64,000 bases of DNA, from the IMG/VR virus record IMGVR_UViG_3300013125_000002; one strand, written 5' to 3'. The position numbers were made by a program, and so were the translations under genes. Position 1 is the first letter of the stretch. Every line of letters starts with the position of its first letter. This DNA comes from a virus. Of the stretch, positions 9,107 to 18,629 are shown piece by piece. A model generated the notes under the pieces. It worked only from the letters and a program-made list of their open reading frames with translations, was not told the DNA's origin and made no database searches.

Positions 9107-9160
9107 CAGTTCAACTGAGACTCGGGTTTCCGTTCAAGGTTGTTCTCTGCCCCTACTATC

Positions 9161-9192
9161 TATAATACGAAGATGACCTATCCGTCGGACAC
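9161..9192 (-). promoter_or_regulatory. Phage-specific promoter GTGTC-N16-TTCGTATTATA (copy 2)
   Basis: Conserved motif and spacing. Confidence 0.75.
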
Positions 9193-9275
9193 CTTGCGCT
9201 TACGAATCCAACGGACAAGAGCAGAGATACCCAACAGGGTCAGCAGCACTTCAAATCCCCCACACAGACAAAGGA

Positions 9276-9581: not shown

Positions 9582-9673
9582 TCGTCACCCCGATGATTTG
9601 GTTACAGTCTCAAAATCATCGGAGAGAGTCAAGCTGATCTTGTAGAGGGAGGATTCTAGAACTTATGAAAAAA

Positions 9674-9754
9674 CGGAAGGCGGAGGAATCGAACCCCAGG
9701 TCTTGCGGCCTCCACCGGGTTCAAGCCGGCTTTGCCACCATGGCGGCGCCTTCC
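9674..9754 (-). tRNA. tRNA-Ser(UGA), atypical 8/4 (allo-tRNA-like) fold
   Basis: GGAAGGCG/CGCCUUCC acceptor, 4-bp T stem, UUCGAUU loop, long V arm, G73. Confidence 0.75.
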
Positions 9755-9978
9755 AAACCCTGAAGCCTTTCAGCCCACTGCTCCATAGCTCGCATCGCTA
9801 ATTGCAGATCAGTGAACTGGGCGTCGAGGGTCAATGTCCACTCGGGGTGCTTGACGATCCCCCGATACTTGATCCCGTCTCCGTACCAAGGTTGCACAAA
9901 AAGAGTCAGAGTAGCAACCCTAGCAATCCATGGTAGCTGGCCAACACCAGTAGGTTGCTGCCAGTCCAGCTTGGCCAC
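9721..9978 (-). CDS. Hypothetical protein (C-terminus overlaps tRNA-Ser)
   Basis: ATG overlaps HNH stop. Confidence 0.45.
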   Translation of the reverse strand: MAKLDWQQPTGVGQLPWIARVATLTLFVQPWYGDGIKYRGIVKHPEWTLTLDAQFTDLQLAMRAMEQWAERLQGLEGAAMVAKPA

Positions 9979-10487
9979 TATGGCACCAACTCAGCGGTCC
10001 AGTACTCTCGCCACTCGACAGGAATCGAGTCCACCTCCCGCAGAGCCACATTGAAGACAGGAACCCATGTCGGTCTCACAGGCTGTGCCCGAAGGGTCAT
10101 TCCTGCCTCACGAAGAGTCAGGTCAGCCTTCTTGTGGTTGCAGCTCTGGCAAGCCATGACGATGTTCTCCCACTCGGTCTTGCCACCCCGAGACTTCGGG
10201 ATGACGTGATCGAAGGTCAGAACTACATCCTTGCCATGGGCTCCACAGTACTGGCAGCGGAACCTATCCCGGGCGAGGACATTCTGACGAGAGAACTTGA
10301 TCCTCTTCTTCTTGGCGTCGATGGCATGCGTGATCCTCACAACCGCCGGCATGCCGACGTTGAAGTGAACCTCACGCCCGTACTCCTCGAGCACCTCTAC
10401 CTTGTTCTTGGCAAGGTAGGCCATCGCCCGTTGCCAGGGCACAGTGTTGATCGGCTGGTACCCCTGATCTAAGACTAAGGTTTGCAC
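9978..10487 (-). CDS. HNH endonuclease (HNH_5/McrA-like family)
   Basis: TLVLDQGYQP...FSRQNVLARDRFRCQYCG...LTFDHVIPKSRGG..WENIVMACQSCNHKK; likely GTG start 10487 (track start lies inside a tRNA). Confidence 0.9.
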   Translation of the reverse strand: MQTLVLDQGYQPINTVPWQRAMAYLAKNKVEVLEEYGREVHFNVGMPAVVRITHAIDAKKKRIKFSRQNVLARDRFRCQYCGAHGKDVVLTFDHVIPKSRGGKTEWENIVMACQSCNHKKADLTLREAGMTLRAQPVRPTWVPVFNVALREVDSIPVEWREYWTAELVP

Positions 10488-10529
10488 GAGATCACCTGTG
10501 AACAGTTGGTCATGGTCGATTGTACCAGA

Positions 10530-10604
10530 TAGAGCGGGTCGGATTCGAACCGACACTGTCCGGAGTTTGAAGCCGGGGCCTCCTACCCGTTGGGCTACCG
10601 CTCC
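10530..10604 (-). tRNA. tRNA-Leu(CAA), short variable loop
   Basis: Cloverleaf; loop UUCAAAC. Confidence 0.8.
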
Positions 10605-10608
10605 ATAA

Positions 10609-10684
10609 TACCAGGGATGGGATTCGAACCCACACTGCCGAGATCCTTAGTCTCGTGCCTCCTACCAAGTTGGGCTACCCTGGC
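10609..10684 (-). tRNA. tRNA-Leu(AAG), short variable loop
   Basis: CGAGA-CUAAGGA-UCUCG. Confidence 0.85.
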
Positions 10685-10688
10685 ATAG

Positions 10689-10762
10689 TCGGGATGACTG
10701 GATTTGAACCAGTGACCTCTTGGACCCCATCCAAGCGTTCTTCCAGGCTGAACTACATCCCG
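10689..10762 (-). tRNA. tRNA-Pro(GGG)
   Basis: CUUGG-AUGGGGU-CCAAG. Confidence 0.9.
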
Positions 10763-10766
10763 TTAG

Positions 10767-10840
10767 TACCCCCGACGCGGCTCGAACGCGCACTTGATCT
10801 CCTTTTAGGGGAGAGCCTCTTCCTCTTGGGCTACAGGGGT
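10767..10840 (-). tRNA. tRNA-Leu(UAA), C33, short variable loop
   Basis: UCUCC-CCUAAAA-GGAGA. Confidence 0.75.
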
Positions 10841-10846
10841 AGAAAC

Positions 10847-10878
10847 TCCCACCTCTGCCAGCGATAACAGAGGTGGGA
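10847..10878 (-). terminator. 11-bp hairpin after Ro60 (terminator/processing site) carrying GUUAUC
   Basis: TCCCACCTCTG/CAGAGGTGGGA inverted repeat. Confidence 0.5.
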
Positions 10879-10885
10879 TCAGAAC

Positions 10886-12538
10886 TTACTGCTTGGCGAA
10901 TTCGCTGATCAGGTTAGGTGCTGCTGTGTCAAACCCGACCACATCCAGCATCCCTGCGTCATCAGGATCAGCAATCGTGAAGTTGTTGGCTACCATCCCC
11001 ACGACTACAAGCTTGGCTGGAATGCCCATCTTCTGCCGATATTGCTGAAGAGCCTGCACCGGCTGAATCTCCCCAGCCCACGTCTCCGAGTCAGTGTAGA
11101 TCTCGAAGAGGTCAACTGGGATCTTGTGCTTTGCTGCATCCAACATTGGCAGCGCACAATCAGTACCACCGAATGACAGCCTCTCCGTGTACCGACAGAT
11201 GTCGTCGAGCCTCATCGTGGGGCTGATCTTCAGCGTCGTGATTGCATTACCTTCGTACCCAAGGCCATGCAATGATGCTCTGCCGCTGGTGAAGCCCTTG
11301 ATCACCCACTGCTGCTCCACCCGTGCCCTCACCATCGCCATTGCTGACGAAGCTACTCGAGGTGTCAGTCCCATAACTCCTGCCACCATCCCACCACCCA
11401 TCGACCCCGAGACATCGAGTGCCAGGTAATGACGCTTGCCAGTCGGCTCCACAGCCCAGAAGGACACGTAGAACGACTCGTTGAGAGCGTCAACTACCTG
11501 CTGGACCAGGTCCCAGGTATTGCTGCCCCGAAGCCCATGACCCGCCGAGTAGGTCAGCATCGCTGTCAGCACCTGGATCGGATGCACCCTTGCCTTCTTG
11601 AGCTGCTCCAGATCGACCAGTCGCTTCGCCACCTCACCAACTGCTAATGCCATTGGCTTGAGCAGCCCAACCCGCGTCATGGTAGCCAGGTTCCGCAGAA
11701 GAGCCGTCAGCCCCAGGCTAGGAAGCATCGCCTCCCAGACCTCGGCGTGATTCAGCATCTCCGTTGGAATCGCTTCCCGAGGCAACCGGTAGTCCTGGAT
11801 CAGCTTGACCATCTCCTTGACGCTGGTGATGGTCTTGGCCTTCTCGAACGCCCAGATGACTCGAGCTGCCTCCGGCACTGCACCAACCTCTGGTAGGTCG
11901 TTCTCCTTGCCCTTGACCATCCAGCGGACGACCGTCTGGTGGTCTGAAGAGCCTGGCTTGACGTGTGCCAGCCTAAGCACGTCTCGATGTGACCAGCCAT
12001 CACGGGCCTGGTACTTGACCGTCTGGTACGCCACATCCTTCGCCTGTTGCTCGTTGTACCAGCGAGCAATCGCCCGACGGGCTCCTGGACCCCAGCCACC
12101 GAAGGCCTGCATCGCCTCGCAAAAGTGGAAGAGGTGTGTTCCGATCCGGCAGACCTTCGGCAGAGCCTGGTAGGCTGCTTGCTTGGTCTCGACATTCCCA
12201 AGCTTGGCTGCCATCGCCAATGCAAAGATCGCCGGATCGTTCTTCGGTGCTCTTCCTGCATCGGAGATGTCAGTGATCAACTTGACCAGGCGAACGCCAT
12301 CAGCCTTGATGCACCGCTCGATGGCCTTGGCGTTCTCCTTGGTGAGCTTACGCTCGGTGGCATAGTAGCTCCCACCCTCACTCCCGAGGATCAGGAACCG
12401 CTGTGCCTGCACCCAGATGTCGACTGGGAAAGTGACTCCCCCTGCCGAGTTCTCCACCATGTCGTTCTCACGACCTGGGATCACCTCGTTCTGCGGAGTC
12501 TGCCGACGGTTGACGTGGGACGAGTACTGAACGGGCAT
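10886..12538 (-). CDS. rsr: Ro60/TROVE-domain RNA-binding protein (Rsr)
   Basis: NSAGG..F...RFLILGSEGGSYY, GRAPKNDPAIFALA, KYQARDGWSHRDVLRLAH, ALLRNL, vWA DVSGSM, GGTDCALPM, TDSET, DVVGFD. Confidence 0.96.
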   Translation of the reverse strand: MPVQYSSHVNRRQTPQNEVIPGRENDMVENSAGGVTFPVDIWVQAQRFLILGSEGGSYYATERKLTKENAKAIERCIKADGVRLVKLITDISDAGRAPKNDPAIFALAMAAKLGNVETKQAAYQALPKVCRIGTHLFHFCEAMQAFGGWGPGARRAIARWYNEQQAKDVAYQTVKYQARDGWSHRDVLRLAHVKPGSSDHQTVVRWMVKGKENDLPEVGAVPEAARVIWAFEKAKTITSVKEMVKLIQDYRLPREAIPTEMLNHAEVWEAMLPSLGLTALLRNLATMTRVGLLKPMALAVGEVAKRLVDLEQLKKARVHPIQVLTAMLTYSAGHGLRGSNTWDLVQQVVDALNESFYVSFWAVEPTGKRHYLALDVSGSMGGGMVAGVMGLTPRVASSAMAMVRARVEQQWVIKGFTSGRASLHGLGYEGNAITTLKISPTMRLDDICRYTERLSFGGTDCALPMLDAAKHKIPVDLFEIYTDSETWAGEIQPVQALQQYRQKMGIPAKLVVVGMVANNFTIADPDDAGMLDVVGFDTAAPNLISEFAKQ

Positions 12539-12578
12539 GTGACCCCTCCTTACCGGCCCTCACTAAGAGAGCAAAAAT

Positions 12579-12643
12579 GATGAGCAAGTTGTTGCCGCTA
12601 GGGTGGCTTCACCAAAGAGGTAACCTAGAAGCTCCGGCCCATC
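12579..12643 (-). ncRNA. Y RNA-like RNA 1 (minimal), directly upstream of Ro60
   Basis: GAUGGGCCGG...GUUACC...CUUGCUCAUC Ro-binding-type stem. Confidence 0.7.
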
Positions 12644-12656
12644 GGTTCATCAGAAC

Positions 12657-12754
12657 AGCTAGCGCCTCAGCGAGGTTGGTGATCCTTGGAGTGCCTTTCG
12701 GCCATATCTCAGCATTGGTAGATAACCAAAGATCATTCGGCCAAGGAGCTAGCT
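12657..12754 (-). ncRNA. Y RNA-like RNA 2
   Basis: UUGGCCGAAUGAUCUUUGGUUAUC...CCAAGGAUCA...CUCGCUGAGG; GAAA hairpin. Confidence 0.7.
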
Positions 12755-12773
12755 ATTCCGATGAAGTAATCCT

Positions 12774-12803
12774 CATATGTTCACAGTACGTCAGACTTGT
12801 CAA
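12774..12803 (-). promoter_or_regulatory. Possible internal sigma70 promoter for Y RNAs and Ro60
   Basis: Perfect TTGACA at 12798-12803, weak -10. Confidence 0.35.
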
Positions 12804-12811
12804 CCACAAAG

Positions 12812-12885
12812 TGGCAGCAGCTGGTAACGATCCAGCAATCTTTCGGTTATGAGCCGAATGAGGAGACCATCTCCTCCCTGCTGCC
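12812..12885 (-). tRNA. tRNA(CAU), atypical (no U8, T-loop AUCGUUA)
   Basis: UUCGG-CUCAUAA-CCGAA; all four stems pair. Confidence 0.7.
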
Positions 12886-12890
12886 ATGGG

Positions 12891-12969
12891 TGCGAGGAGA
12901 GGGAATCGAACCCTCACGCCGAAGCGATAGCTCCTAAGGCTACTGCGTCTACCATTCCGCCATCCTCGC
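12891..12969 (-). tRNA. tRNA-Leu(UAG)
   Basis: Class II cloverleaf. Confidence 0.92.
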
Positions 12970-12970
12970 A

Positions 12971-13048
12971 TGGTACCCCCGGCAGGACTTGAACCTGCAA
13001 GTCTCTCGGTTCGTAGCCGAGTGTCCTAATCCATTAGACGACGGGGGC
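12971..13048 (-). tRNA. tRNA-Arg(ACG), CCA encoded
   Basis: CUCGG-CUACGAA-CCGAG. Confidence 0.92.
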
Positions 13049-13063
13049 GTAGGTAGTAGGCGG

Positions 13064-13135
13064 TTGGCCCAGTCGGATTTGAACCGACGACTCCCAGCTT
13101 GTAAGGCTAGTACTCTTCCACTGAGTTATGGGCCA
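13064..13135 (-). tRNA. tRNA-Val(UAC), replacement copy
   Basis: CUAGC-CUUACAA-GCUGG; UGGCCCA/UGGGCCA acceptor. Confidence 0.88.
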
Positions 13136-13511
13136 AAACACACTTCTGCATTCTGTACCTAGCAACTTCTAATCGATGAGCTTCAGTGCATCGCACGCAA
13201 CGGCATGGTGCGGTTTCACTGCGGTATCTGGTGTCAGTCCCATGTGGGGAAAGACGCTGTAGTCGAGTAGCCTCTTTGTGACACTCCCCACACAACACCA
13301 CACACTTCTTCAACTCCAACTCCCGTCGTTGTTTGGACCAAGACCAAATTCGGTGAGACACTTTCTTGGTCGGGTCTTTGTGATGCACCTCTAGTTGATC
13401 CTCTGATCCGCACCCAACACATGGACCATGCTCTTTAATCCATGCATTACGGTTTTCTGACTTCCATCGGAGTTGGTATTGTTTACGTTCCTCTGGATCT
13501 TTGTAAGGCAT
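13107..13511 (-). CDS. HNH homing endonuclease inserted in tRNA-Val
   Basis: MPYKDP...CVGCG...LEVHHKDP...ELKKCVVLCGECH...HGT..RY...CRC..C; ATG in anticodon stem of the split tRNA. Confidence 0.88.
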   Translation of the reverse strand: MPYKDPEERKQYQLRWKSENRNAWIKEHGPCVGCGSEDQLEVHHKDPTKKVSHRIWSWSKQRRELELKKCVVLCGECHKEATRLQRLSPHGTDTRYRSETAPCRCVRCTEAHRLEVARYRMQKCVLAHNSVEEY

Positions 13512-13538
13512 GCGCTCTTCCAGTTGAGCTAACCGCCC
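13501..13538 (-). pseudogene. 5' half of original tRNA-Val(UAC), split by the HNH insertion
   Basis: GGGCGGU UA GCUC AACUGGAA GAGC G CAUGC CUUACAA; matching acceptor strand ACCGCCU at 13058-13064. Confidence 0.8.
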
Positions 13539-13705
13539 ACAGGACAATCCTGCTGCACGAGTGAAGGCTTGATCTCAACCTTCACACGCTGATGGAGAGT
13601 GAGCTTCTGGCACTTGCCCAGACACTTCAGGGGTACCTGATCCTTGTCGCTCCATCGCTCCCATCTCTGTACATTCCCACACTTCGTACACCTGAACTCT
13701 TCCAT
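13529..13705 (-). CDS. 58-aa zinc-ribbon protein, weakly bL33-like
   Basis: AAGGAGAGG RBS; MEEFRCTKCGNVQRWERWSDKDQVPLKCLGKCQKLTLHQRVK...; below track cutoff. Confidence 0.55.
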   Translation of the reverse strand: MEEFRCTKCGNVQRWERWSDKDQVPLKCLGKCQKLTLHQRVKVEIKPSLVQQDCPVGG

Positions 13706-13720
13706 GATCCTCTCCTTGAG

Positions 13721-13794
13721 TGGTCGTGATAGGATTTGAACCTATGACCTTCTGGGTGTGATCCAGATGTGCTTCCAGGCTACACCACACGACC
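13721..13794 (-). tRNA. tRNA-Val(CAC)
   Basis: UCUGG-AUCACAC-CCAGA. Confidence 0.88.
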
Positions 13795-13799
13795 GATAG

Positions 13800-13872
13800 T
13801 GCTGCTGGGAGGAATTGAACCTCCGTGTGCCGATTCCGGAGACCGGTGCGTTGTCCACTACGCTACAGCAGC
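13800..13872 (-). tRNA. tRNA-Arg(CCG)
   Basis: Loop CUCCGGA. Confidence 0.85.
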
Positions 13873-13876
13873 TCAA

Positions 13877-13948
13877 TACCCCGACCCAGAATCGAACTGG
13901 GACTTGCGGTTTAGGAAACCGCCGTGATCTCCATTTCACTATCGGGGC
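13877..13948 (-). tRNA. tRNA-Arg(CCU)
   Basis: GCGGU-UUCCUAA-ACCGC. Confidence 0.88.
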
Positions 13949-13949
13949 A

Positions 13950-14021
13950 CACCACCGGAAGGAATCGAACCCTCGTCTTCCGGGTAGAAACCGGAGGCCC
14001 TGTCCATTAGACGACGGTGGC
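13950..14021 (-). tRNA. tRNA-Arg(UCU)
   Basis: UCCGG-UUUCUAC-CCGGA. Confidence 0.88.
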
Positions 14022-14026
14022 ACTAG

Positions 14027-14094
14027 AGGCGCCGGAGCGAGTTGAACGCTCCTCCACGGTTTTGCAGACCGTGTTGCTCCCGGAACGCAGCGCC
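14027..14094 (-). tRNA. tRNA-Cys(GCA), truncated D arm (68 nt)
   Basis: ACGGU-CUGCAAA-ACCGU; U73. Confidence 0.75.
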
Positions 14095-14098
14095 ATAC

Positions 14099-14169
14099 AG
14101 CTGGGCAAGGGATGATCTTAGGCATTGGTCAGATTAGAAGTCTGGTAACCTATGATCTTCGGCTCAGCT
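14099..14169 (-). ncRNA. Y RNA-like RNA 3 with Arg(UCU)-like anticodon hairpin
   Basis: AGCUGAGCCGAAGAUCAUAGGUUA-CCAGACUUCUAAUCUGA-...CCUAAGAUC..CUUGCCCAGCU. Confidence 0.78.
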
Positions 14170-14172
14170 CGG

Positions 14173-14240
14173 CAGGTCACCGGAGACTCGAACTCCGCAA
14201 GCTGGGTTTTGGAGACCCGGCCGTACCCTGTACGTGACCC
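14173..14240 (-). tRNA. tRNA-Trp(CCA), truncated D arm (68 nt)
   Basis: Loop CUCCAAA; D arm GUAC-AGG-GUAC; G73. Confidence 0.75.
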
Positions 14241-14387
14241 ACGATGACCTCTGATCGCACCCACTCAACGCTGCCCCTGCACCTCGGGAATACAGATGAG
14301 AAAGTAACGATCAACCGGTGTGCTCTGGCCGAGGTCTCCGCCAGCCGGTAGAGGCGCGGATGTCATGCCTGACTCGCCTTCCTCTAG

Positions 14388-14460
14388 AGCCGCCACCGAG
14401 AATCGAACTCGGCCTTTCAGTTTACCAAACTGATGTCCCGACCACGTGGACCTTGGCGGC
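14388..14460 (-). tRNA. tRNA-Thr(GGU)
   Basis: UCAGU-UUGGUAA-ACUGA. Confidence 0.88.
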
Positions 14461-14467
14461 AAAACTT

Positions 14468-14540
14468 TGGAGCCAGCGAGGATCGAACTCGCAACCTCTG
14501 CCGTGCAAAGGCAGCGCTCTCCCAATTGAGCTATGACCCC
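14468..14540 (-). tRNA. tRNA-Ala(UGC)
   Basis: G3:U70; CUGCC-UUUGCAC-GGCAG. Confidence 0.92.
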
Positions 14541-14547
14541 GAGTCAG

Positions 14548-14649
14548 TGGAATGGCCAGGAGTTGAACCCAGCTCCCCTTAGGCAGCTCCTGCAAGCCAC
14601 CCATCAGGGATCGCGCCAAGTGGTGCAGGCCACCCTCTCGCGACACCCC
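14548..14649 (-). ncRNA. tRNA-like RNA with T arm and acceptor but no canonical anticodon arm
   Basis: GGGGUG...CUGGG-UUCAACU-CCUGG-CCAUUCCA; internal repeat GGGUGGC(C/U)UGCA. Confidence 0.5.
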
Positions 14650-14656
14650 ATAACAG

Positions 14657-14728
14657 TGGGCACTACTGGAATCGAACCAGTGGTCTCCTGCGTGTCGAGC
14701 AGGTGTCTTTCCATTCGACCAAGCGCCC
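14657..14728 (-). tRNA. tRNA-Val(GAC), C33
   Basis: CCUGC-UCGACAC-GCAGG. Confidence 0.85.
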
Positions 14729-14731
14729 ATT

Positions 14732-14804
14732 TACTCCCAACGGGGTTCGAACCCGTGATCTCCGGCTTGAAAGGCCAGCGACTTGACCGCTCGTCCATGG
14801 GAGC
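14732..14804 (-). tRNA. tRNA-Glu(UUC)
   Basis: Loop CUUUCAA. Confidence 0.88.
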
Positions 14805-14808
14805 ATAG

Positions 14809-14880
14809 TGATCCTGGAGGGAGTCGAACCCTCATTTCCTGATCGAGAGTCAGGTTGCCTACCGTTAGCAAGACAGGACC
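14809..14880 (-). tRNA. tRNA-Glu(CUC)
   Basis: CCUGA-CUCUCGA-UCAGG. Confidence 0.85.
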
Positions 14881-14881
14881 A

Positions 14882-14957
14882 TGGAGCTGGCTATCGGACT
14901 TGAACCGATCACCTGCTGCTTACAAGGCAGCTGCTCTACCGGATGGGCTAAGCCAGC
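14882..14957 (-). tRNA. tRNA-Thr(UGU), CCA encoded
   Basis: Loop CUUGUAA. Confidence 0.92.
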
Positions 14958-14962
14958 ACGAG

Positions 14963-15034
14963 AGCCCTCATTCGGAATCGAACCGAATTCTCGGCCTTAC
15001 GAGAGCCGCGCGTCACCATTTACGCTTTGAGGGC
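14963..15034 (-). tRNA. tRNA-Thr(CGU)
   Basis: Loop CUCGUAA. Confidence 0.85.
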
Positions 15035-15069
15035 ATGACTCACCAACTTTGACCCCTTCGTTGGTGATC

Positions 15070-15150
15070 GCGCAGCCTTTACCAGTCTAGCCTTTCGGCA
15101 GCAAGCCGGACGAATCCGACACGATCTTGAGATCATCAGGGGCCCTGCGC
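15070..15150 (-). ncRNA. Unclassified multibranch small RNA in tRNA spacer
   Basis: GCGCAG/CUGCGC closing stem with UUCG and GAAA tetraloop hairpins. Confidence 0.5.
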
Positions 15151-15152
15151 AG

Positions 15153-15227
15153 TACCACCGAGAGGATTTGAACCTCCAACCTCCTCGACCTGAACGAGGC
15201 GCCTCTACCAAATTGGGCTACGGTGGC
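15153..15227 (-). tRNA. tRNA-Leu(CAG), short variable loop
   Basis: CCUCG-UUCAGGU-CGAGG. Confidence 0.85.
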
Positions 15228-15233
15228 ATGTAG

Positions 15234-15307
15234 TCGAGGTGGTCAGATTCGAACTGACGTGCTCCTGCTCCCGAAGCAGGCGAGGGACCAGACTCCTCTA
15301 CACCTCG
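15234..15307 (-). tRNA. tRNA-Pro(CGG)
   Basis: CCUGC-UUCGGGA-GCAGG. Confidence 0.9.
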
Positions 15308-15312
15308 ATAAG

Positions 15313-15384
15313 AGCGAGTGGAGGGAATTGAACCCTCGACCAACTGGTTGGAAGCCAGTGACTCTGCCACTGAGTTACACTCGC
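15313..15384 (-). tRNA. tRNA-Gly(UCC)
   Basis: ACUGG-CUUCCAA-CCAGU. Confidence 0.92.
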
Positions 15385-15393
15385 AAAGATCAA

Positions 15394-15465
15394 AGTGACC
15401 GGAGGGAGTTGAACCCTCTCTTCAGGCTTGGGAAGCCCGCGTGCCTCCGTGAACACCCCGGTCAC
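15394..15465 (-). tRNA. tRNA-Gly(CCC)
   Basis: Loop UUCCCAA. Confidence 0.85.
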
Positions 15466-15471
15466 AAGTTA

Positions 15472-15558
15472 GGGCCGCCAACGATGAGGACTGGACTGAT
15501 CTTTCAGTGAGTCGACGGCACTGATTGACCAGGGTTGATCTCATCATTGGCTAAGCCC
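15472..15558 (-). ncRNA. Unclassified rod-like small RNA in tRNA spacer
   Basis: GCCAAUGAUGAG/CUCAUCGUUGGC stem, internal bubble, UCAGUG/CACUGA apex. Confidence 0.5.
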
Positions 15559-15560
15559 AG

Positions 15561-15644
15561 CGGAGAGCCTGGGAATCGAACCCAGCGGGTCTTTCGGCCC
15601 TCCCGCGCTTCCAACGCGGTTGCGCACCTTGCTTCTCGCTCTCC
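15561..15644 (-). tRNA. tRNA-Ser(GGA), atypical D arm
   Basis: CCGCG-UUGGAAG-CGCGG; V arm GGCCGAAAGACC. Confidence 0.8.
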
Positions 15645-15652
15645 AAGATCAG

Positions 15653-15734
15653 CGGAAGGTGCAGGAATCGAACCTGCTGCGTCTTTCGGCGCTGATGGCT
15701 TCAAACCACTCCCGTACCTTACGGGTCACCTTCC
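15653..15734 (-). tRNA. tRNA-Ser(UGA), 6-bp D stem
   Basis: D arm CCCGUA-AGG-UACGGG; loop UUUGAAG. Confidence 0.8.
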
Positions 15735-15805
15735 AGCTAACCGATCTCCTCTGAGTCACAAAGAGTGTAGTCCTTGCGATTGACCATACTCAGCGAGATC
15801 GGCAA

Positions 15806-15877
15806 TGCAGCTGCCGGGAGTTGAACCCGGGCCTCAACCTTGGCAAGGTCGCATGCGGCCACCAACACTTCAGCTGC
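15806..15877 (-). tRNA. tRNA-Gly(GCC)
   Basis: Loop UUGCCAA. Confidence 0.82.
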
Positions 15878-15879
15878 GT

Positions 15880-15949
15880 AGCGGGAAAAGGAGTTGAACC
15901 TTGTCCTCTGGGTTATGAACCCAGCGTGCAGCCACTACACTATTCCCGC
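15880..15949 (-). tRNA. tRNA(CAU) Met/Ile2
   Basis: CUGGG-UUCAUAA-CCCAG (3 G-C pairs, initiator-like). Confidence 0.8.
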
Positions 15950-15951
15950 AG

Positions 15952-16023
15952 CGGGCACGAAGGGGATCGAACCCTCCTCGGCGGATCGACAGTCCGCTGG
16001 CCTCACCAGATGCCTACGTGCCC
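15952..16023 (-). tRNA. tRNA-Asp(GUC)
   Basis: GCGGA-CUGUCGA-UCCGC; G73. Confidence 0.85.
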
Positions 16024-16088
16024 ATTCACCGGCTTGTTCTGGGCTTAATAAGATGATCCCGGCAAACCGGCCAATCCAAGATCATCAG

Positions 16089-16170
16089 CGGAAGCTAGAC
16101 GAATCGAACGCCCGGTCTTTCGGCCGCCCTCGGGTTCGAGCCGAGTTAGGGACCCTCCCTGGTAGCTTCC
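16089..16170 (-). tRNA. tRNA-Ser(CGA), atypical D arm
   Basis: CUCGG-CUCGAAC-CCGAG; long V arm; G73. Confidence 0.8.
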
Positions 16171-16175
16171 AGAGC

Positions 16176-16274
16176 GCCGCCGCTTCATCGTCAAGGTCCT
16201 TGTCCAAGTTGATCAGACTCTTCCTCAGACCTCTTGGCCTTCAAAGGGCCGCGTTGGTCACGAATGAAGCAGCG
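16176..16274 (-). ncRNA. Unclassified structured RNA in tRNA spacer
   Basis: CGCUGCUUCAU/AUGAAGCGGCG closing stem. Confidence 0.45.
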
Positions 16275-16276
16275 AG

Positions 16277-16347
16277 TGGACCCACTGGGATTTGAACCCA
16301 GAATACAGCCATGCCGAGGCTGCGTGATCCCATTTCACTATGAGCCC
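16277..16347 (-). tRNA. tRNA-Ala(GGC), C33
   Basis: G3:U70; CAGCC-UCGGCAU-GGCUG. Confidence 0.85.
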
Positions 16348-16420
16348 GAGATGCTCCCCGCTTAGACTCACCTGCGCTGCTTTTGCCCGCTTCGGTAAAT
16401 CTGCGCTAGAGCAATGAGAT

Positions 16421-16549
16421 GAGTGAGCAAGGGGGAGAGTTGGATGTTTTAGTGTCCTTCCATTAGACGACAGAACCCGTGGGTCCCGCTGGGACTCGAA
16501 CCCAGATCACTCGCTTAGCAGGCGATAACCCAACTCAATCGGCCCACTC
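16421..16549 (-). ncRNA. YrlA-like Y RNA 4 with circularly permuted tRNA domain and GCU anticodon hairpin
   Basis: GAGUGGGCCGA..GUUA-UCGC-CUGCUAA-GCGA, T arm, closed acceptor, D arm, ..CUUGCUCACUC. Confidence 0.85.
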
Positions 16550-16551
16550 GG

Positions 16552-16623
16552 TGGAGTCGGAGGGAGTCGAACCCTCACCTCAGCGTTGCGAACGCCGCGT
16601 GCTCCCGCTAGCACTACGACCCC
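16552..16623 (-). tRNA. tRNA-Ala(CGC)
   Basis: G3:U70; loop UUCGCAA. Confidence 0.88.
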
Positions 16624-16630
16624 AAAAGAT

Positions 16631-16770
16631 CGAAGCAGGCAAGGGGTTGACCTGAGCGTTGAGATTGGATTCGAACCAACGTCTCCGGGTTTATTGGACC
16701 CGGCGCTCTACCTCTAAGCTACTCCTGTAGGGTTTGGCACAGGATAACTCAGATCATTCGGCTTGCTTCG
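16631..16770 (-). ncRNA. Y RNA-like RNA 5 with non-permuted D/anticodon/T tRNA module
   Basis: CGAAGCAAGCCGAA..GUUAUC..UAGCUUAGAGGUAGAGC-CCGGGUCCAAUAAACCCGG-GUUGGUUCGAAUCCAAU..CUUGCCUGCUUCG. Confidence 0.8.
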
Positions 16771-16771
16771 G

Positions 16772-16844
16772 GGCGGGGGAGGGGAGTCGAACCCCCTAAT
16801 GCCAGGGCCACAACCTGGTGCTTAGCCGTTTAGCTTCCCTCGCC
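16772..16844 (-). tRNA. tRNA-His(GUG) with G-1
   Basis: CCAGG-UUGUGGC-CCUGG; C73. Confidence 0.88.
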
Positions 16845-16849
16845 ATGAG

Positions 16850-16920
16850 TCGCTGGAGACAGAGTCGAACTGTCGTTTACCGGTTATCGGCCGATCGTTC
16901 TTCCGTTGAACTACCCAGCG
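16850..16920 (-). tRNA. tRNA-Ile(GAU), C33
   Basis: AUCGG-CCGAUAA-CCGGU. Confidence 0.82.
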
Positions 16921-16928
16921 ATCTTTAG

Positions 16929-16999
16929 CTCCGAGACCGGGATTCGAACCCAGAAGTCGTGGTTAACAGCCACGCATGATTCCATTTCATCATCTCGGA
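16929..16999 (-). tRNA. tRNA-Asn(GUU)
   Basis: CGUGG-CUGUUAA-CCACG. Confidence 0.88.
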
Positions 17000-17014
17000 A
17001 TGATCCTACACTAG

Positions 17015-17088
17015 CGAGTCGGACAGGATTTGAACCTGTGTCAGGTGGGTTAACGGCCCACTGCTCAACCAGACTGAGCTACCGACCC
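17015..17088 (-). tRNA. tRNA-Asn(GUU), second copy, C33
   Basis: GUGGG-CCGUUAA-CCCAC. Confidence 0.85.
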
Positions 17089-17091
17089 ATG

Positions 17092-17190
17092 CGATGGGCA
17101 AAGAATGATGCTGGTGCCTCCATAGGCGATGCCCCATAGATTGGGGCATTCTGGAATCGAACCGGATAATCCAACACCAACGGCTCATCG
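17092..17190 (-). ncRNA. YrlA-like Y RNA 6 (T arm, closed acceptor, D arm)
   Basis: CGAUGAGCCGUUGGUGUUGGAUUAUCCGGUUCGAUUCCAG-AUGCCCC/GGGGCAU-GCCUAUGGAGGC-CCAGCAUCA..UUUGCCCAUCG. Confidence 0.82.
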
Positions 17191-17193
17191 TAG

Positions 17194-17267
17194 TCGGGGA
17201 GACAGGATTTGAACCTGCGGCATCTAGCTCCCAAAGCTAGCGTTCTACCAGGCTGAACTACTCCCCG
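17194..17267 (-). tRNA. tRNA-Pro(UGG)
   Basis: CUAGC-UUUGGGA-GCUAG. Confidence 0.92.
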
Positions 17268-17289
17268 ATTTGCCCAAGTGAGCTTTACG

Positions 17290-17506
17290 TCGTGCATCTA
17301 CTCTAATCAGTGGATCTCAAGATGCAGCATGGGGTGATGTCTGGAGCTAGCACGACTTGCCGCCAGATCATGAGTCCCACCTAAGTCCTGAGTCACTGGA
17401 TCGGCCTTGGGCATCCGATCTCGACTCCGTGGTTGCGGAGTCTTCACTGAGCATCAACAGCCGGCCTTACCCTACCCTACCGGAGGTGTACCGGATCAGT
17501 TGATGC
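17290..17506 (-). ncRNA. Unclassified ~215-nt structured RNA (serial hairpins)
   Basis: TGCATCT/AGATGCA, GATCGG/CCGATC, GACTCCG/CGGAGTC, GCATCAAC/GTTGATGC inverted repeats. Confidence 0.45.
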
Positions 17507-17508
17507 AG

Positions 17509-17582
17509 ATCCCCCAGTTGGATTCGAACCAACGACCTTCGGGTTCAAAGCCCGACGCTACCGCCAGCTGAGCTATGGGGGA
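17509..17582 (-). tRNA. tRNA-Gln(UUG)
   Basis: U1-A72; loop CUUUGAA. Confidence 0.88.
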
Positions 17583-17587
17583 AGAAG

Positions 17588-17660
17588 TGGAGCGAAGTGG
17601 AGTCGAACCACTGTATCGGCATTTTCAGTGCCGCGCCTTGTCCGCATCGGCCATCGCTCC
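17588..17660 (-). tRNA. tRNA-Phe(GAA)
   Basis: CGGCA-CUGAAAA-UGCCG. Confidence 0.88.
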
Positions 17661-17665
17661 ATGTG

Positions 17666-17736
17666 TGGACCCGGAGTGAATCGAACACTCACCCACCGGT
17701 TATGAGCCAGCTGCTCGACCTTCGAGCTACGGGTCC
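17666..17736 (-). tRNA. tRNA(CAU) Ile2/Met
   Basis: Loop CUCAUAA. Confidence 0.85.
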
Positions 17737-17751
17737 ATCGACCATGATCAA

Positions 17752-17771
17752 CTATTCAGTTGTCAAGATCA
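17752..17771 (-). promoter_or_regulatory. boxA-like antitermination element (GATCTTGACAACTGAATAG)
   Basis: Resembles rrn/tRNA-operon boxA, located early in a long untranslated operon. Confidence 0.5.
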
Positions 17772-17834
17772 GCGAAGCACTGAGAAACGGTCTCAGCTCC
17801 CATCAGCAGGCAGCCTACTGATGCTTCCTTCTAG

Positions 17835-17906
17835 TTCCGGGACAAGGGTTCGAACCTTGATTGGCGGAGTCAGAGTCCGCTGTCCTGCCAATTGAACGAC
17901 CCCGGA
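17835..17906 (-). tRNA. tRNA-Gln(CUG)
   Basis: GCGGA-CUCUGAC-UCCGC. Confidence 0.9.
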
Positions 17907-18065
17907 TCAATGAATCAAATACCTCCAACCTCGACGTTGACTTTTACTCCAACGTCTCTTCCACCACCAGCGTTTTCTTGGTCCCCTTCCATGCACCTGA
18001 CCACAGTTGGAACAGCCACCTCTGAGAATGAACCGCATCCAACTTCGGTCAGGATCAGCCATCAG

Positions 18066-18137
18066 TGGGCTCGGACGGATTCGAACCGTCACCTCATCGG
18101 GTAAGAGCCGAGAATGCAGCCGTAACACCTCGAGCCC
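18066..18137 (-). tRNA. tRNA-Lys(CUU)
   Basis: Loop CUCUUAC. Confidence 0.85.
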
Positions 18138-18173
18138 AGTACTTCCACGCCTGGATCAGTTCCTCAAGCATCG

Positions 18174-18249
18174 TGGTGCCTCCGGCAGGACTCGAACCTG
18201 CGTCTCGATGGGTAAAAGCCATGTGCGCTGGCCGCTGCGCCACGGAGGC
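18174..18249 (-). tRNA. tRNA-Lys(UUU), CCA encoded
   Basis: Loop CUUUUAC. Confidence 0.88.
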
Positions 18250-18302
18250 AATAGCTCTCGAACCAACCGGTGCATTTGAGCTTGTGCATGATCTTGCCTC
18301 CG

Positions 18303-18374
18303 TGGGTGGTCTAGGAGTCGAACCTAGATTTGCGGGGTTACGGCCCGGTGCTCTACCAGTTGAACTAACCACCC
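18303..18374 (-). tRNA. tRNA-Tyr(GUA), C33, short variable loop; first tRNA of operon
   Basis: CGGG-CCGUAAC-CCCG. Confidence 0.8.
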
Positions 18375-18375
18375 C

Positions 18376-18411
18376 AAATGCGAAAAGGCCGCCAGGTTTC
18401 CCAGGCGGCCT
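18376..18411 (-). terminator. Intrinsic terminator/attenuator ahead of the tRNA operon
   Basis: AGGCCGCCUGG-GAAA-CCUGGCGGCCU followed by UUUCGCAUUU. Confidence 0.8.
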
Positions 18412-18438
18412 CTCGAGTTCTACTCTGCTTCCTCTCGA

Positions 18439-18591
18439 TTAGCCGCCTGGCGCTCCATGCTCGAGAGGATTCGGGTACTGCTTGGTACCCAGATCCACCG
18501 AGCTGACGGGGCGCGCACTAAACGCACACGTCCCGCGCCAGCTCTGAATGGCTGCCCTGGACAATGTGCGTTTGGCGGCTTCGCGTCTCAT
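18439..18591 (-). CDS. Attenuator leader peptide, 50 aa, all 20 amino acids, 40 distinct codons
   Basis: MRREAAKRTLSRAAIQSWRGTCAFSARPVSSVDLGTKQYPNPLEHGAPGG*; last codons CCAGGCGGC complementary to terminator 5' arm. Confidence 0.72.
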   Translation of the reverse strand: MRREAAKRTLSRAAIQSWRGTCAFSARPVSSVDLGTKQYPNPLEHGAPGG

Positions 18592-18599
18592 GATTCTTC

Positions 18600-18629
18600 A
18601 CTTGTGAACCATGTGGTCGCGTTTGTCAA
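18600..18629 (-). promoter_or_regulatory. Sigma70-like promoter of the leader/tRNA operon
   Basis: TTGACA at 18624-18629, weak -10; ATG about 9 nt past -10 (near-leaderless). Confidence 0.55.

What the first reader, a model, noticed from the sequence alone, without database searches (positions are those of the whole stretch)
9674..18374. Integrated translation-rescue island: near-complete tRNA set, Ro60 and six Y RNAs in one phage operon
Seen: 46 co-oriented tRNA genes covering all 20 amino acids and almost every anticodon, interleaved with six Y-like RNAs, a full-length Ro60/Rsr and several other structured RNAs. A boxA-like element lies near the start, and only 3 of 46 tRNAs encode CCA. Established: bacterial rsr-yrl loci respond to tRNA cleavage, usually with RtcB. 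No rtcB is visible in this window. Inference: a coordinated counter-defence against tRNA-destroying immunity.
Basis: partly seen in the sequence, partly recalled or inferred. Interest (0 to 1): 0.85.

Follow-up and report, generated by a model that had tools for sequence, protein, structure and literature searches.

The report
Phage tRNA array with Ro60, Y RNAs
An uncultured large phage carries a 9-kb accessory cassette, probably one transcription unit, holding 46 tRNA genes, a Ro60 RNA-binding protein and six Y RNAs; it is a rich new example of a module already seen in actinobacterial phages, and its role in infection is still untested.

Summary
On the minus strand, 9674-18374 contains 45 ARAGORN tRNAs plus one tRNA-Ser(UGA) found by homology. 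They cover all 20 amino acids and 42 distinct anticodons; only Ser-GCU is missing. Only three encode CCA. A full-length Ro60 (TROVE + vWA) lies inside the array. A covariance model built only from relatives finds exactly six Y-like RNAs in the 64-kb window. The boxA claim is not supported. No RtcB, RNA ligase, Pnkp or CCA-adding enzyme is in the window.

Four Y RNAs sit 0-9 nt from at least one neighbouring tRNA, and no sigma-70-type promoter or internal terminator was found. Co-transcription and shared processing are therefore likely.

The kind is known. Ro60 occurs in 356 phage records. Gordonia phage Sixama has Ro60, tmRNA and about five Y RNAs in a 30-tRNA array, and Streptomyces BE2 phages have 44 tRNAs plus Ro. 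Two phages of the same lineage lack the cassette at the syntenic site, so it is accessory.

The counter-defence reading is plausible but untested. The earlier scan had already noted the Y RNAs, the C33 tRNAs and the leader attenuator on this genome. My verdict is a new member of a known kind, of moderate interest.

The parts
18375..18629 (-). Leader: TTGACA box (18624-18629), 50-codon ORF (18439-18591) and a terminator-like hairpin with a U-run (18383-18414). It ends 8 nt before tRNA-Tyr.
   Evidence: Sequence read. It aligns with L001 upstream of its tRNA-Tyr, with indels in multiples of 3 inside the ORF. The peptide contains all 20 amino acids. An alternative pairing joins the last codons to the 5' arm of the terminator (-31.5 kcal/mol).
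12811..18374 (-). Main tRNA block: 41 tRNA genes, Tyr first and Met last, interleaved with Y1-Y4, one HNH gene and structured spacers.
   Evidence: ARAGORN, Rfam tRNA. Gene order is largely syntenic with L001 and L014.
17092..17190 (-). Y1: Y-like RNA of 99 nt with a stem / CG-bulge / stem core and apical hairpins. It lies 2 nt after tRNA-Pro(UGG) and 3 nt before tRNA-Asn.
   Evidence: Model R1: 23.5 bits, E 0.0046, full length. Fold z -2.9. L014 56-125 sits at the same position, before its tRNA-Asn.
16633..16768 (-). Y2: Y-like RNA of 136 nt whose apical part is a tRNA body in native order (D arm, anticodon-like arm, T arm). It lies 1 nt after tRNA-His and 9 nt before tRNA-Ala(CGC).
   Evidence: R1: 30.3 bits, E 1.4e-4. 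Rfam tRNA: 41.9 bits over model positions 5-66 at 16661-16724. z -4.1. L014 3654-3784 has the same architecture.
16421..16549 (-). Y3: YrlA-type Y RNA of 129 nt (hairpin, T arm, acceptor-like stem, D arm). It directly abuts tRNA-Ala(CGC).
   Evidence: R1: 31.1 bits, E 8.9e-5. Rfam YrlA matches full length (1-114) but at only 21.9 bits, against a gathering score of 69.
14099..14169 (-). Y4: minimal Y-like RNA of 71 nt. It lies 1 nt after tRNA-Trp and 4 nt before tRNA-Cys.
   Evidence: R1: 36.0 bits, E 7.1e-6. z -3.7. Carries the GCCGAAG motif.
13107..13538 (-). HNH endonuclease gene (ATG at 13511). It starts inside a 5' half of a tRNA-Val(UAC)-like sequence (13538 onward) and ends inside the intact tRNA-Val(UAC).
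   Evidence: phrog_4234 HNH endonuclease, E 6.9e-32. Frames read.
12664..12747 (-). Y5: Y-like RNA of 84 nt, the first of two directly upstream of Ro60.
   Evidence: R1: 23.9 bits, E 0.0037. GCCGAAUG motif. L005 508-594 is the likely orthologue.
12578..12644 (-). Y6: minimal Y-like RNA of 67 nt, ending 39 nt before the Ro60 start codon.
   Evidence: R1: 43.2 bits, E 1.7e-7. L005 619-684 and L001 9870-9936 are the likely orthologues.
10886..12538 (-). Ro60/Rsr gene, 550 aa, with an AAGGAGG ribosome-binding site upstream.
   Evidence: Pfam TROVE and vWA_Ro60. PDB 2nvo, 9nen and 1yvp at E <= 1e-119; the MIDAS DVSGSM motif is aligned.
10841..10885 (-). A 14-bp GC-rich hairpin that fills the whole gap between the Ro60 stop codon and tRNA-Leu(UAA).
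   Evidence: Fold -24.3 kcal/mol. No T-run follows it, so it is more likely a 3' stabiliser or weak pause site than a full terminator (inference).
10528..10840 (-). Four distal tRNAs: Leu-UAA, Pro-GGG, Leu-AAG and Leu-CAA.
   Evidence: ARAGORN.
9721..10556 (-). Second HNH endonuclease (9978-10556) and an 85-aa ORF (9721-9978) that is also called next to the HNH gene in L004 and L005.
   Evidence: Pfam HNH, E 1.2e-16. phrog_16726, E 2e-38. The HNH protein is 77% identical to its L001 counterpart. Gene calls.
9668..9755 (-). The 46th tRNA, an atypical tRNA-Ser(UGA) with a short D arm, followed by a T6 run. This is the likely end of the transcription unit.
   Evidence: Rfam tRNA-Sec: 35.7 bits, below threshold. 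Orthologue of L001 tRNA-Ser(UGA) at 9453-9536. It is the only terminator-like site on the minus strand in 9000-19500.

Best explanation
This is an accessory translation-supply cassette of an uncultured large phage.

Shown:
- 46 tRNA genes, enough to read every sense codon except AGY.
- A full-length Ro60 gene.
- Six RNAs with the Y-RNA core: a terminal stem, a bulge carrying the CGAA-type motif, and a second stem.

Inferred from the anatomy:
- The cassette is transcribed as one long precursor. It starts at a conserved leader holding a 50-codon ORF and a terminator/antiterminator, and ends at a T-run after the last tRNA.
- Host RNase P and 3'-end enzymes cut the precursor into tRNAs and Y RNAs and free the Ro60 mRNA.
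- Host CCA-adding enzyme completes 43 of the 46 tRNAs.

Inferred from the families:
- The tRNAs keep phage translation going when the host tRNA pool is inadequate or is being destroyed.
- Ro60 binds the six Y RNAs. The resulting RNPs act on RNA 3'-end metabolism, most likely by engaging host PNPase as in D. radiodurans, Salmonella and Thermus phage phiLo.
- This would either shield the flood of CCA-less phage tRNA precursors and phage RNA from decay, or clear misfolded ones.

The cassette is not an Rtc-type ligase repair module.
For: Parts are shown.

One transcription unit:
- Y1, Y2 and Y4 lie 1-9 nt from tRNAs on both sides, and Y3 abuts one (coordinates).
- The 45-nt gap between Ro60 and the next tRNA is filled by a hairpin.
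- The scan found 0 sigma-70-like promoters against 3.8 expected, and the only minus-strand terminator-like site is at 9681-9698.
- The leader ORF and hairpin are conserved in L001, with an antiterminator alternative.

Link between Ro60, Y RNAs and tRNA arrays is recurrent:
- Sixama has Ro60, tmRNA, 30 annotated tRNAs and about five Y RNAs.
- L001, L005, L008, L010, L013, L014 and L023 also show it.
- Streptomyces BE2 phages carry 44 tRNAs, a tmRNA and a Ro-like protein (PMC13191466).

Biochemical precedents:
- A phage Ro60 with two Yrls binds host PNPase and reduces its activity by about 70-76% in vitro (PMC12135203).
- A YrlA is cut by RNase P, receives CCA and is processed from a single precursor with YrlB (PMC4201824).

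Dependence on the host remains: only 3 tRNAs encode CCA, no CCA-adding enzyme is in the window, and AGY codons make up 2% of codons with no phage tRNA to read them.
Against: - There are no expression data of any kind.
- Internal promoters of a phage-specific type cannot be excluded. A TTGACAA box lies upstream of Y5 at 12797-12803, and relatives have promoter-like boxes upstream of their Y-Ro60 cassettes.
- The PNPase link is by analogy only. The host is unknown, and no host PNPase could be examined.
- Ro60 sits at three different places in otherwise syntenic arrays. It may therefore be a mobile passenger rather than a functional partner of the tRNAs.
- The rest of the roughly 152-kb genome was not available, so repair enzymes could lie outside the window.
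Confidence: 0.5

Rival explanations
1. Dedicated counter-defence. The phage tRNAs are nuclease-resistant replacements for host tRNAs that are cleaved by anticodon nucleases. The tRNA-like Y RNAs, held by Ro60, act as decoys or competitive inhibitors of those nucleases. The leader ORF switches the cassette on when decoding stalls.
For: - Six tRNAs carry C33 instead of U33: Tyr-GUA, one Asn-GUU, Ile-GAU, Ala-GGC, Val-GAC and Leu-UAA.
- C33 is also found in the L001 Tyr, Ile, Ala-GGC and Val-GAC tRNAs. Another lineage, L010, has 9 of 25 with C33, while Sixama has 0 of 29.
- The cassette is accessory: absent at the syntenic site in two phages of the same lineage, as expected of a host-specific adaptation.
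- The leader ORF with all 20 amino acids, plus terminator and antiterminator, fits induction by slow decoding.
Against: - No nuclease target is known, because the host is unknown.
- C33 has not been shown to block any nuclease. My literature search found no paper on C33 in phage tRNAs.
- Three of the six Y RNAs have no tRNA-like part.
- All 20 amino acids in a 50-aa peptide is only mildly unusual (P about 0.05 by composition; 24 of 924 real 50-aa windows).
- Near-complete tRNA sets are also explained by host shut-off and tRNA turnover.
Confidence: 0.25
2. The tRNA array is ordinary translational supplementation: codon-usage matching and replacement of a decaying host pool during lytic growth. 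Ro60 with its Y RNAs is an independent mobile passenger. It lands in tRNA arrays because these are permissive, HNH-rich recombination hot spots, and it has no functional coupling to the tRNAs.
For: - The Ro60 cassette, with two or three Y RNAs just upstream, sits at three different positions in syntenic arrays: between Met and Leu-UAA in the window, between Thr-UGU and Glu-CUC in L014, and after the array in L001.
- Relatives have promoter-like boxes in front of their own Y-Ro60 cassettes.
- Two HNH genes lie in the array.
- Ro60 also occurs in phages away from any large tRNA cluster, for example Rizal, where only two tRNAs lie about 3 kb upstream, and the small (52-63 kb) phages Cashline and Sparky.
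Against: - Four Y RNAs lie 1.6-4.7 kb from Ro60, wedged between tRNAs with 0-9 nt spacers. They therefore depend on array transcription and tRNA-processing enzymes.
- The association of Ro60 with tRNA arrays recurs in unrelated phage groups.
Confidence: 0.15
3. An Rtc-like RNA repair module. Ro60 and the Y RNAs present broken tRNAs to an RNA ligase (RtcB or Rnl with Pnkp) that is encoded elsewhere in the phage or supplied by the host.
For: Bacterial rsr-yrl genes are often next to rtcBA and are induced by tRNA halves (PMC7790460). Comparative work places TROVE proteins of jumbo phages among RNA-repair systems (PMC7824862). Only 64 kb of a genome of about 152 kb was visible.
Against: No RtcB, RNA ligase, Pnkp or CCA-adding enzyme was found among the window ORFs scanned. 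RtcB and PolyA_pol are absent from the complete Sixama genome and from the 109.6-kb L001 record, both of which carry Ro60, Y RNAs and tRNA arrays.
Confidence: 0.07

Closest known systems
Gordonia phage Sixama and relatives (Forza, Boopy, Mareelih): Ro-like protein at the head of a tRNA array
   Same: Ro60 is 47% identical. It is co-oriented with 30 annotated tRNAs, HNH genes lie in the array, and Y-like RNAs with the same GCCGA...GGUUAUC core sit between tRNAs. R1 finds 4 of them and Rfam YrlA finds one more at 46.8 bits. Neither phage has RtcB or a CCA-adding enzyme.
   Different: Sixama also has a tmRNA (88 bits), and none was found here. Sixama has fewer tRNAs and no C33 tRNAs. Its Ro60 gene lies upstream of the array rather than inside it. 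The phage backbone appears unrelated: the best TerL matches to cultured phages are about 30% identical, and none of the best listed hits is an actinobacteriophage. The Y RNAs of Sixama are not annotated in its record.
Streptomyces BE2 phages (Jay2Jay, CeilingFan, Mugiwara) and mycobacteriophage cluster C1 (Bxz1, Rizal, ET08)
   Same: These are large lytic phages with 30-44 tRNAs and a Ro-like protein (PMC13191466). YrlA-type RNAs near Ro60 were reported in 22 phages (PMC4201824). R1 finds two Y-like RNAs directly upstream of the Rizal Ro gene.
   Different: In those phages the tRNAs are spread among small ORFs (Jay2Jay), or Ro lies away from the main cluster (Rizal). Here everything is packed into one 9-kb array with almost no spacers, and there are six Y RNAs.
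Thermus phage phiLo Ro60 with Yrl1 and Yrl2 (PMC12135203)
   Same: Y-like RNAs lie upstream of a phage Ro60 and have a stem-bulge-stem fold with a CGAA motif that is needed for binding. This is the only phage Ro60 RNP with biochemistry: it forms a complex with host PNPase.
   Different: phiLo is not reported with a tRNA array. It has two Y RNAs rather than six, and tRNA-like modules are not described for them. No sequence comparison with phiLo was made here.
Salmonella rsr-yrlBA-rtcBA operon and the D. radiodurans Rsr-Y RNA-PNPase complex (RYPER)
   Same: Ro60 orthologue (E 3e-124 to Rsr). At least two Y RNAs are encoded on the same strand nearby, one with a tRNA-like module. There is a functional tie to tRNA damage or structured-RNA decay.
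   Different: Here there is no RtcB, RtcA or RtcR. The Y RNAs fall far below the Rfam YrlA threshold (21.9 against 69 bits). The setting is a viral tRNA array rather than a stress operon.

Membership tests
Ro60 / Rsr (TROVE family) | N-terminal TROVE (HEAT-repeat ring) domain | tested here: met
   PF05731, E 4.7e-42, residues 28-327.
Ro60 / Rsr (TROVE family) | C-terminal von Willebrand A domain with a MIDAS motif, and full-length collinearity with solved Ro60 structures | tested here: met
   PF25045, E 1.8e-58. 2nvo aligns over residues 10-549 with E 3e-124, and DVSGSM is aligned.
Ro60 / Rsr (TROVE family) | Binds Y RNAs and misfolded RNAs | not testable with these tools
   Needs EMSA or immunoprecipitation.
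Bacterial/phage Y RNA (YrlA/YrlB class) | Encoded on the same strand as Ro60, within about 4 kb of it (criterion of PMC4201824) | tested here: met
   All six are on the Ro60 strand. Y6, Y5, Y4 and Y3 begin 40 nt to 3.9 kb upstream. Y2 and Y1 begin 4.1 and 4.6 kb upstream, slightly beyond the criterion.
Bacterial/phage Y RNA (YrlA/YrlB class) | 5'/3' terminal stem with the GNCGAA(N0-1)G Ro-binding motif in a bulge | tested here: met
   The exact motif is present in Y2, Y4 and Y5. Y1 (GCCGUUGG), Y3 (GCCGAUUG) and Y6 (GCCGGAG) carry variants. The stem-bulge-stem consensus from relatives has compensatory changes in 11 of 15 pairs. A model built without the window's sequences finds all six at E 1.7e-7 to 4.6e-3, and the next hit is at E 0.34.
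Bacterial/phage Y RNA (YrlA/YrlB class) | At least one Y RNA with a tRNA-like module (T and D arms) | tested here: met
   Y3 aligns to Rfam YrlA full length with T, acceptor-like and D arms. Y2 holds a tRNA body at 41.9 bits on RF00005, positions 5-66.
Bacterial/phage Y RNA (YrlA/YrlB class) | Reaches the Rfam YrlA (RF02553) gathering score | tested here: not met
   The best hit is 21.9 bits against 69. Sixama's best hit is also below threshold at 46.8 bits. I therefore file these as Y-like RNAs of a divergent phage subgroup, not as RF02553 members.
rsr-yrl-rtcBA RNA repair operon | RtcB ligase (with or without RtcA) adjacent, and an RtcR/sigma-54 activator | tested here: not met
   No RtcB or sigma-54 activator was found among the window ORFs scanned. 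PF01139 is absent from Sixama and from the L001 record. The rest of this genome was not available.
Phage tRNA array | Dense co-oriented cluster of more than 20 tRNA genes, often with HNH homing endonucleases | tested here: met
   45 + 1 tRNAs in 8.7 kb. Two HNH genes.
Phage tRNA array | An accompanying tmRNA, as in Sixama, the C1 phages and the BE2 phages | tested here: not met
   No tmRNA was found by ARAGORN or Rfam in the window.
rrn/lambda-type boxA antitermination | A boxA consensus near the start of the unit, on the transcribed strand | tested here: not met
   There is no match with up to 3 mismatches on the minus strand in 18375-19000. Window-wide, 43 matches were found against 38 expected. 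Only the E. coli consensus was tried.
Leader-peptide transcription attenuator | A short ORF whose translation chooses between terminator and antiterminator hairpins directly upstream of the regulated genes | tested here: inconclusive
   The ORF, the hairpin with U-run and the competing pairing are present and are also found in L001. There is no expression evidence, and the all-20-amino-acid content is only mildly improbable.

The most novel reading that the evidence does not exclude
The cassette is a self-regulating anti-tRNase system. A leader ORF containing all 20 amino acids senses failing decoding and opens transcription. The array then delivers a full set of tRNAs, some hardened by C33 anticodon loops. 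The Ro60-bound Y RNAs, with their tRNA-like modules in native and permuted order, act as decoys or sponges for host tRNA-targeting nucleases, or disarm host PNPase. On this reading Y RNAs would be a viral immune-evasion device.
Probability: 0.18. Interest if true: 0.8.

Novelty: new member of a known kind. Interest (0 to 1): 0.5.

Why it matters
What Ro60-Y RNA particles do in bacteria and phages is still open. This cassette packs every relevant part into 9 kb:
- A near-complete tRNA set.
- Ro60.
- Six Y RNAs of three architectures.
- A candidate decoding-sensitive leader.

Natural relatives without the cassette also exist. That makes it a compact test bed for three questions:
- Do phage Y RNPs protect or police phage tRNAs?
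- Do they retarget host PNPase?
- Do they blunt tRNA-cleaving defences?

The comparison also shows that unannotated Y RNAs are probably common inside phage tRNA arrays, where genome annotators currently leave gaps or call small ORFs.

Tried and rejected
- **Rfam YrlA.** It gives only one weak hit in the window (21.9 bits), so membership in RF02553 is rejected. I replaced it with a model built from relatives.
- **boxA.** The E. coli consensus search was at chance level.
- **Sigma-70 promoter scan.** It found nothing in 9000-19500. The eight minus-strand TTGACAA boxes share no common -10 element.
- **DNA-level relatives.** Megablast of the island against cultured phages matched only one tRNA. 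An exact-pattern scan of viral contigs for the Y motif found nothing.
- **Whole genome.** None is held for this window. The 152-kb contig that carries the identical Ro60 could not be fetched; only a 6.9-kb copy was returned. Two other Ro60 homologue contigs came back without DNA.
- **Host.** A TerL search of prokaryote genomes found no prophage relative, so the host stays unknown.
- **tmRNA.** The structured region at 4700-7100 has no tmRNA or other Rfam match.
- **Arm pairing.** The cognate versus non-cognate arm test is only moderately discriminating (-20.7 against -13.5 kcal/mol, with overlap).
- **MAFFT alignment A2.** It put stem II out of register between sequences, so I did not count pairs on it.
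- **Literature.** My search for C33 in phage tRNAs found nothing relevant.

Full report
**What the window is.** The window is phage DNA. It encodes a large terminase (34464-36302), a family-A DNA polymerase (53799-55901), SbcCD-like nucleases, a UvsX-like recombinase and an SSB, nearly all on the minus strand. No whole genome is held for it. An identical Ro60 protein is on record on a 152-kb contig. The terminase is only about 30% identical to that of any cultured phage, so this is an uncultured lineage with an unknown host.

**Checking the observation: tRNAs.**
- ARAGORN finds 45 tRNA genes, all on the minus strand between 10528 and 18374. Rfam agrees.
- They cover all 20 amino acids with 42 different anticodons. 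CAU occurs three times and GUU twice.
It aligns end to end with a normal tRNA-Ser(UGA) at the same place in a related phage (A1), so I accept it as an atypical tRNA.
- The same alignment shows that the window's other tRNA-Ser(UGA), at 15652-15734, is the orthologue of the relative's tRNA-Ser(GCU) with a remoulded anticodon arm. This is why Ser-GCU is the one missing decoder.
- AGY codons are not avoided. They make up 34% of Ser codons, or 20 per 1000 codons, so the phage still needs one host tRNA.
- Only Lys-UUU, Thr-UGU and Arg-ACG encode CCA.

**Checking the observation: Ro60, boxA and repair enzymes.**
- The 550-aa ORF at 10886-12538 is a complete Ro60. It has the TROVE and vWA domains and aligns over its full length to Rsr and to vertebrate Ro60, with the MIDAS motif in place.
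- The boxA element is not supported.
- No RtcB, RNA ligase, Pnkp or CCA-adding enzyme is among the ORFs scanned.

**The six Y RNAs.**
- Rfam's YrlA model gives only one weak hit (21.9 bits), so I tested the claim independently.
- A motif of the form GNCG..G..GGUUAYC occurs six times on the minus strand of the island. It occurs once, as a loose match, in the rest of both strands of the window. It recurs next to Ro60 genes in many other loci.
- I took short Y-like RNAs from relatives only: L001, L014, L005, L007 and Gordonia phage Sixama. Their consensus fold is an 8-bp terminal stem, an internal loop with the CGAA-type motif, and a 7-bp second stem. Eleven of the 15 pairs show compensatory changes.
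- A covariance model of that alignment (R1) finds exactly six full-length hits in the 64-kb window at E 1.7e-7 to 4.6e-3. They fall at the six predicted places. The next hit, at E 0.34, is part of a tRNA-Ser.
- Three are minimal: Y4, Y5 and Y6, of 67-84 nt.
- Y3 has the permuted T / acceptor-like / D arrangement of YrlA.
- Y2 encloses a tRNA body in native order, scoring 41.9 bits on the tRNA model over positions 5-66. L014 3654-3784 has the same design.
- Y1 carries other hairpins in its apical part.
- The core matches the GNCGAA(N0-1)G motif described for bacterial Y RNAs (PMC4201824). It also matches the CGAA bulge that is required for binding by a phage Ro60 (PMC12135203).

**Is it one transcription unit?**
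- Y1, Y2 and Y4 are separated from the flanking tRNAs by 1-9 nt on both sides, and Y3 abuts tRNA-Ala(CGC). There is no room for promoters or terminators.
- The 45 nt between the Ro60 stop codon and the next tRNA are filled by a single hairpin. The four distal tRNAs therefore need read-through from the Ro60 message.
- The consensus scan finds no sigma-70-like promoter in 9000-19500, against 3.8 expected. It finds one terminator-like site on the minus strand, the T-run after the last tRNA.
- Directly upstream of the first tRNA lies a TTGACA box, a 50-codon ORF and a strong hairpin with a U-run.
- That whole leader is also present in L001, and the indels inside the ORF are multiples of three. The last codons can pair with the 5' arm of the hairpin.
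I confirm the anatomy, not the function. The peptide's all-20-amino-acid content is only mildly unusual (P about 0.05).
- A phage-specific internal promoter upstream of Y5 cannot be excluded.

**Relatives of the same phage lineage.**
- L001 is a 109.6-kb viral contig. Its terminase is 66% identical to the window's and its Ro60 is 47% identical.
- It has 41 tRNAs in almost the same order, four R1-positive Y RNAs, the same HNH (77% identical) and the same leader.
- L014 and L005 are fragments of further relatives.
- The Ro60 gene, always with two or three Y RNAs just upstream, sits at a different place in each array. It therefore behaves as a movable sub-cassette.
- Two other phages of the lineage are G002 (terminase 71% identical, polymerase 61%) and G003 (terminase 74-78%, polymerase 69%). 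In 115 kb and 78 kb of sequence they have no Ro60 and zero or one tRNA.
- In G003, genes that flank the region lie about 6.7 kb apart, against about 20.7 kb in the window. No tRNA lies between them.
- The island is therefore accessory. The caveat is that both contigs are incomplete (68% and 53%).

**Cultured phages.**
- Ro60 is found in 356 phage records, mostly from Mycobacterium, Streptomyces, Gordonia and Microbacterium.
- In Gordonia phage Sixama, Ro60 heads a co-oriented array of 30 annotated tRNAs with HNH genes, a tmRNA and about five Y-like RNAs lying between tRNAs.
- Streptomyces BE2 phages have 44 tRNAs, a tmRNA and a Ro-like protein (PMC13191466).
- Rizal has two Y-like RNAs directly upstream of its Ro gene.
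- Neither Sixama's complete genome nor the L001 record has RtcB or a CCA-adding enzyme.
- Chen et al. (2014) reported YrlA RNAs near Ro60 in 22 phages. Iyer et al. (2021) grouped phage TROVE proteins with tRNA-related RNA repair.

**How it most likely works.** The parts are shown. The single precursor is inferred from the anatomy. Everything else is inferred from what is known of the families.
- The tRNA set lets the phage translate almost independently of the host pool.
- The precursor must be cut by host RNase P and 3'-end enzymes, and 43 of the 46 tRNAs need host CCA addition.
- Ro60 should bind the six Y RNAs through the conserved bulged helix.
- The only activities shown for such RNPs are tethering or damping of PNPase and help in structured-RNA decay or maturation.
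- I therefore favour a role in controlling 3'-exonuclease action on the burst of phage tRNA precursors and other phage RNA (confidence about 0.5).

**The rival readings.**
It gains some support from six tRNAs with C33 in place of U33, four of which are also C33 in L001. It also fits the accessory nature of the island and the published idea that YrlA might inhibit an anticodon nuclease.
- A passenger model, with no functional coupling between Ro60 and the tRNAs, stands at about 0.15.
- An Rtc-type repair model stands at about 0.07. The absence of ligases weakens it.

**Novelty and limits.**
- The kind, a phage Ro60 with several Y RNAs tied to a tRNA cluster, is known from databases and partly from the literature.
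- This is a new and unusually dense member in an unrelated phage lineage. Its useful extras are six Y RNAs of three designs, Ro60 inside the array, a candidate attenuator, and natural relatives that lack the cassette.
- All functional statements are inference.
- The host, the rest of the genome and all expression data are missing.

Noticed in passing
window 18375-18629 (minus strand); L001 4540-4883: A leader lies upstream of the tRNA array: a TTGACA box, a 50/51-codon ORF containing all 20 amino acids, and a terminator hairpin whose 5' arm can pair with the last codons of the ORF instead. It is also present in L001.
   Followed up: partly
window 15652-15734 (minus strand) compared with L001 6529-6615: This tRNA-Ser(UGA) is the orthologue of the relative's tRNA-Ser(GCU). 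The acceptor, D and T arms are nearly identical, but the anticodon arm is remoulded. The phage is left with two Ser-UGA tRNAs and no Ser-GCU, although AGY makes up 34% of its Ser codons.
   Followed up: yes
window tRNAs at 18302, 17014, 16849, 16276, 14656 and 10766 (minus strand): Six tRNAs have C at position 33 instead of the usually conserved U, and five of them are followed by G34. C33 is also found in the Tyr, Ile, Ala-GGC and Val-GAC tRNAs of L001. It occurs in 9 of 25 tRNAs of the unrelated locus L010 and in none of the Sixama tRNAs.
   Followed up: partly
window 13107-13538 (minus strand): An HNH endonuclease gene starts at an ATG inside the anticodon stem of a 5' half of a tRNA-Val(UAC)-like sequence and stops inside the intact tRNA-Val(UAC) downstream. 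This looks like a homing insertion with a replacement tRNA. A 58-aa ORF with paired cysteines lies just upstream, at 13529-13705.
   Followed up: partly
window 15466-15559, 15735-15805, 17737-17833, 14541-14655 (minus strand): These spacers in the array fold far better than shuffled controls (z -6.0, -4.5, -3.1 and -2.6). The first two begin with GCCAAUG and GCCGAUC, which resemble the Y-RNA motif, but they form perfect hairpins. The last is a 115-nt four-way junction with a T-arm-like hairpin. None matches Rfam or model R1.
   Followed up: partly
window 16500-16525 (Y3); L001 7118-7250: The first hairpin of Y3 has a 7-nt loop, CUGCUAA, which is an anticodon-loop look-alike with GCU at the anticodon position. 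GCU is the one anticodon missing from the array. The L001 YrlA-type RNA has AUGCUAA at the same place, while the L014 one does not.
   Followed up: no
window 41218-41835 and 31834-32340 (minus strand): There is a NYN-domain (PIN-like RNase) protein (E 7e-24) and an RNase H-like protein elsewhere in the window. The NYN protein is another possible RNA-processing factor of the phage.
   Followed up: no
L006 (Logan contig, 10 kb): Another phage-like contig carries a Ro60 (64% identical), four R1-positive Y-like RNAs packed just upstream of it, and genes with ribosomal protein S12 and RF-1 domains.
   Followed up: no
G003:C1:28378-31272: In this relative the terminase matches in two pieces about 1 kb apart within one 981-aa open frame. 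This suggests an intein or another in-frame insertion in TerL.
   Followed up: no
window 3835-3841 and 5024-5030 (minus strand): Two intergenic TTGACAA boxes are each followed by the same CCTAGAACCAG element. A similar TTCTAGAATCC lies just downstream of the island, in the 9501-9673 spacer. This may be a phage-specific promoter or operator motif.
   Followed up: no
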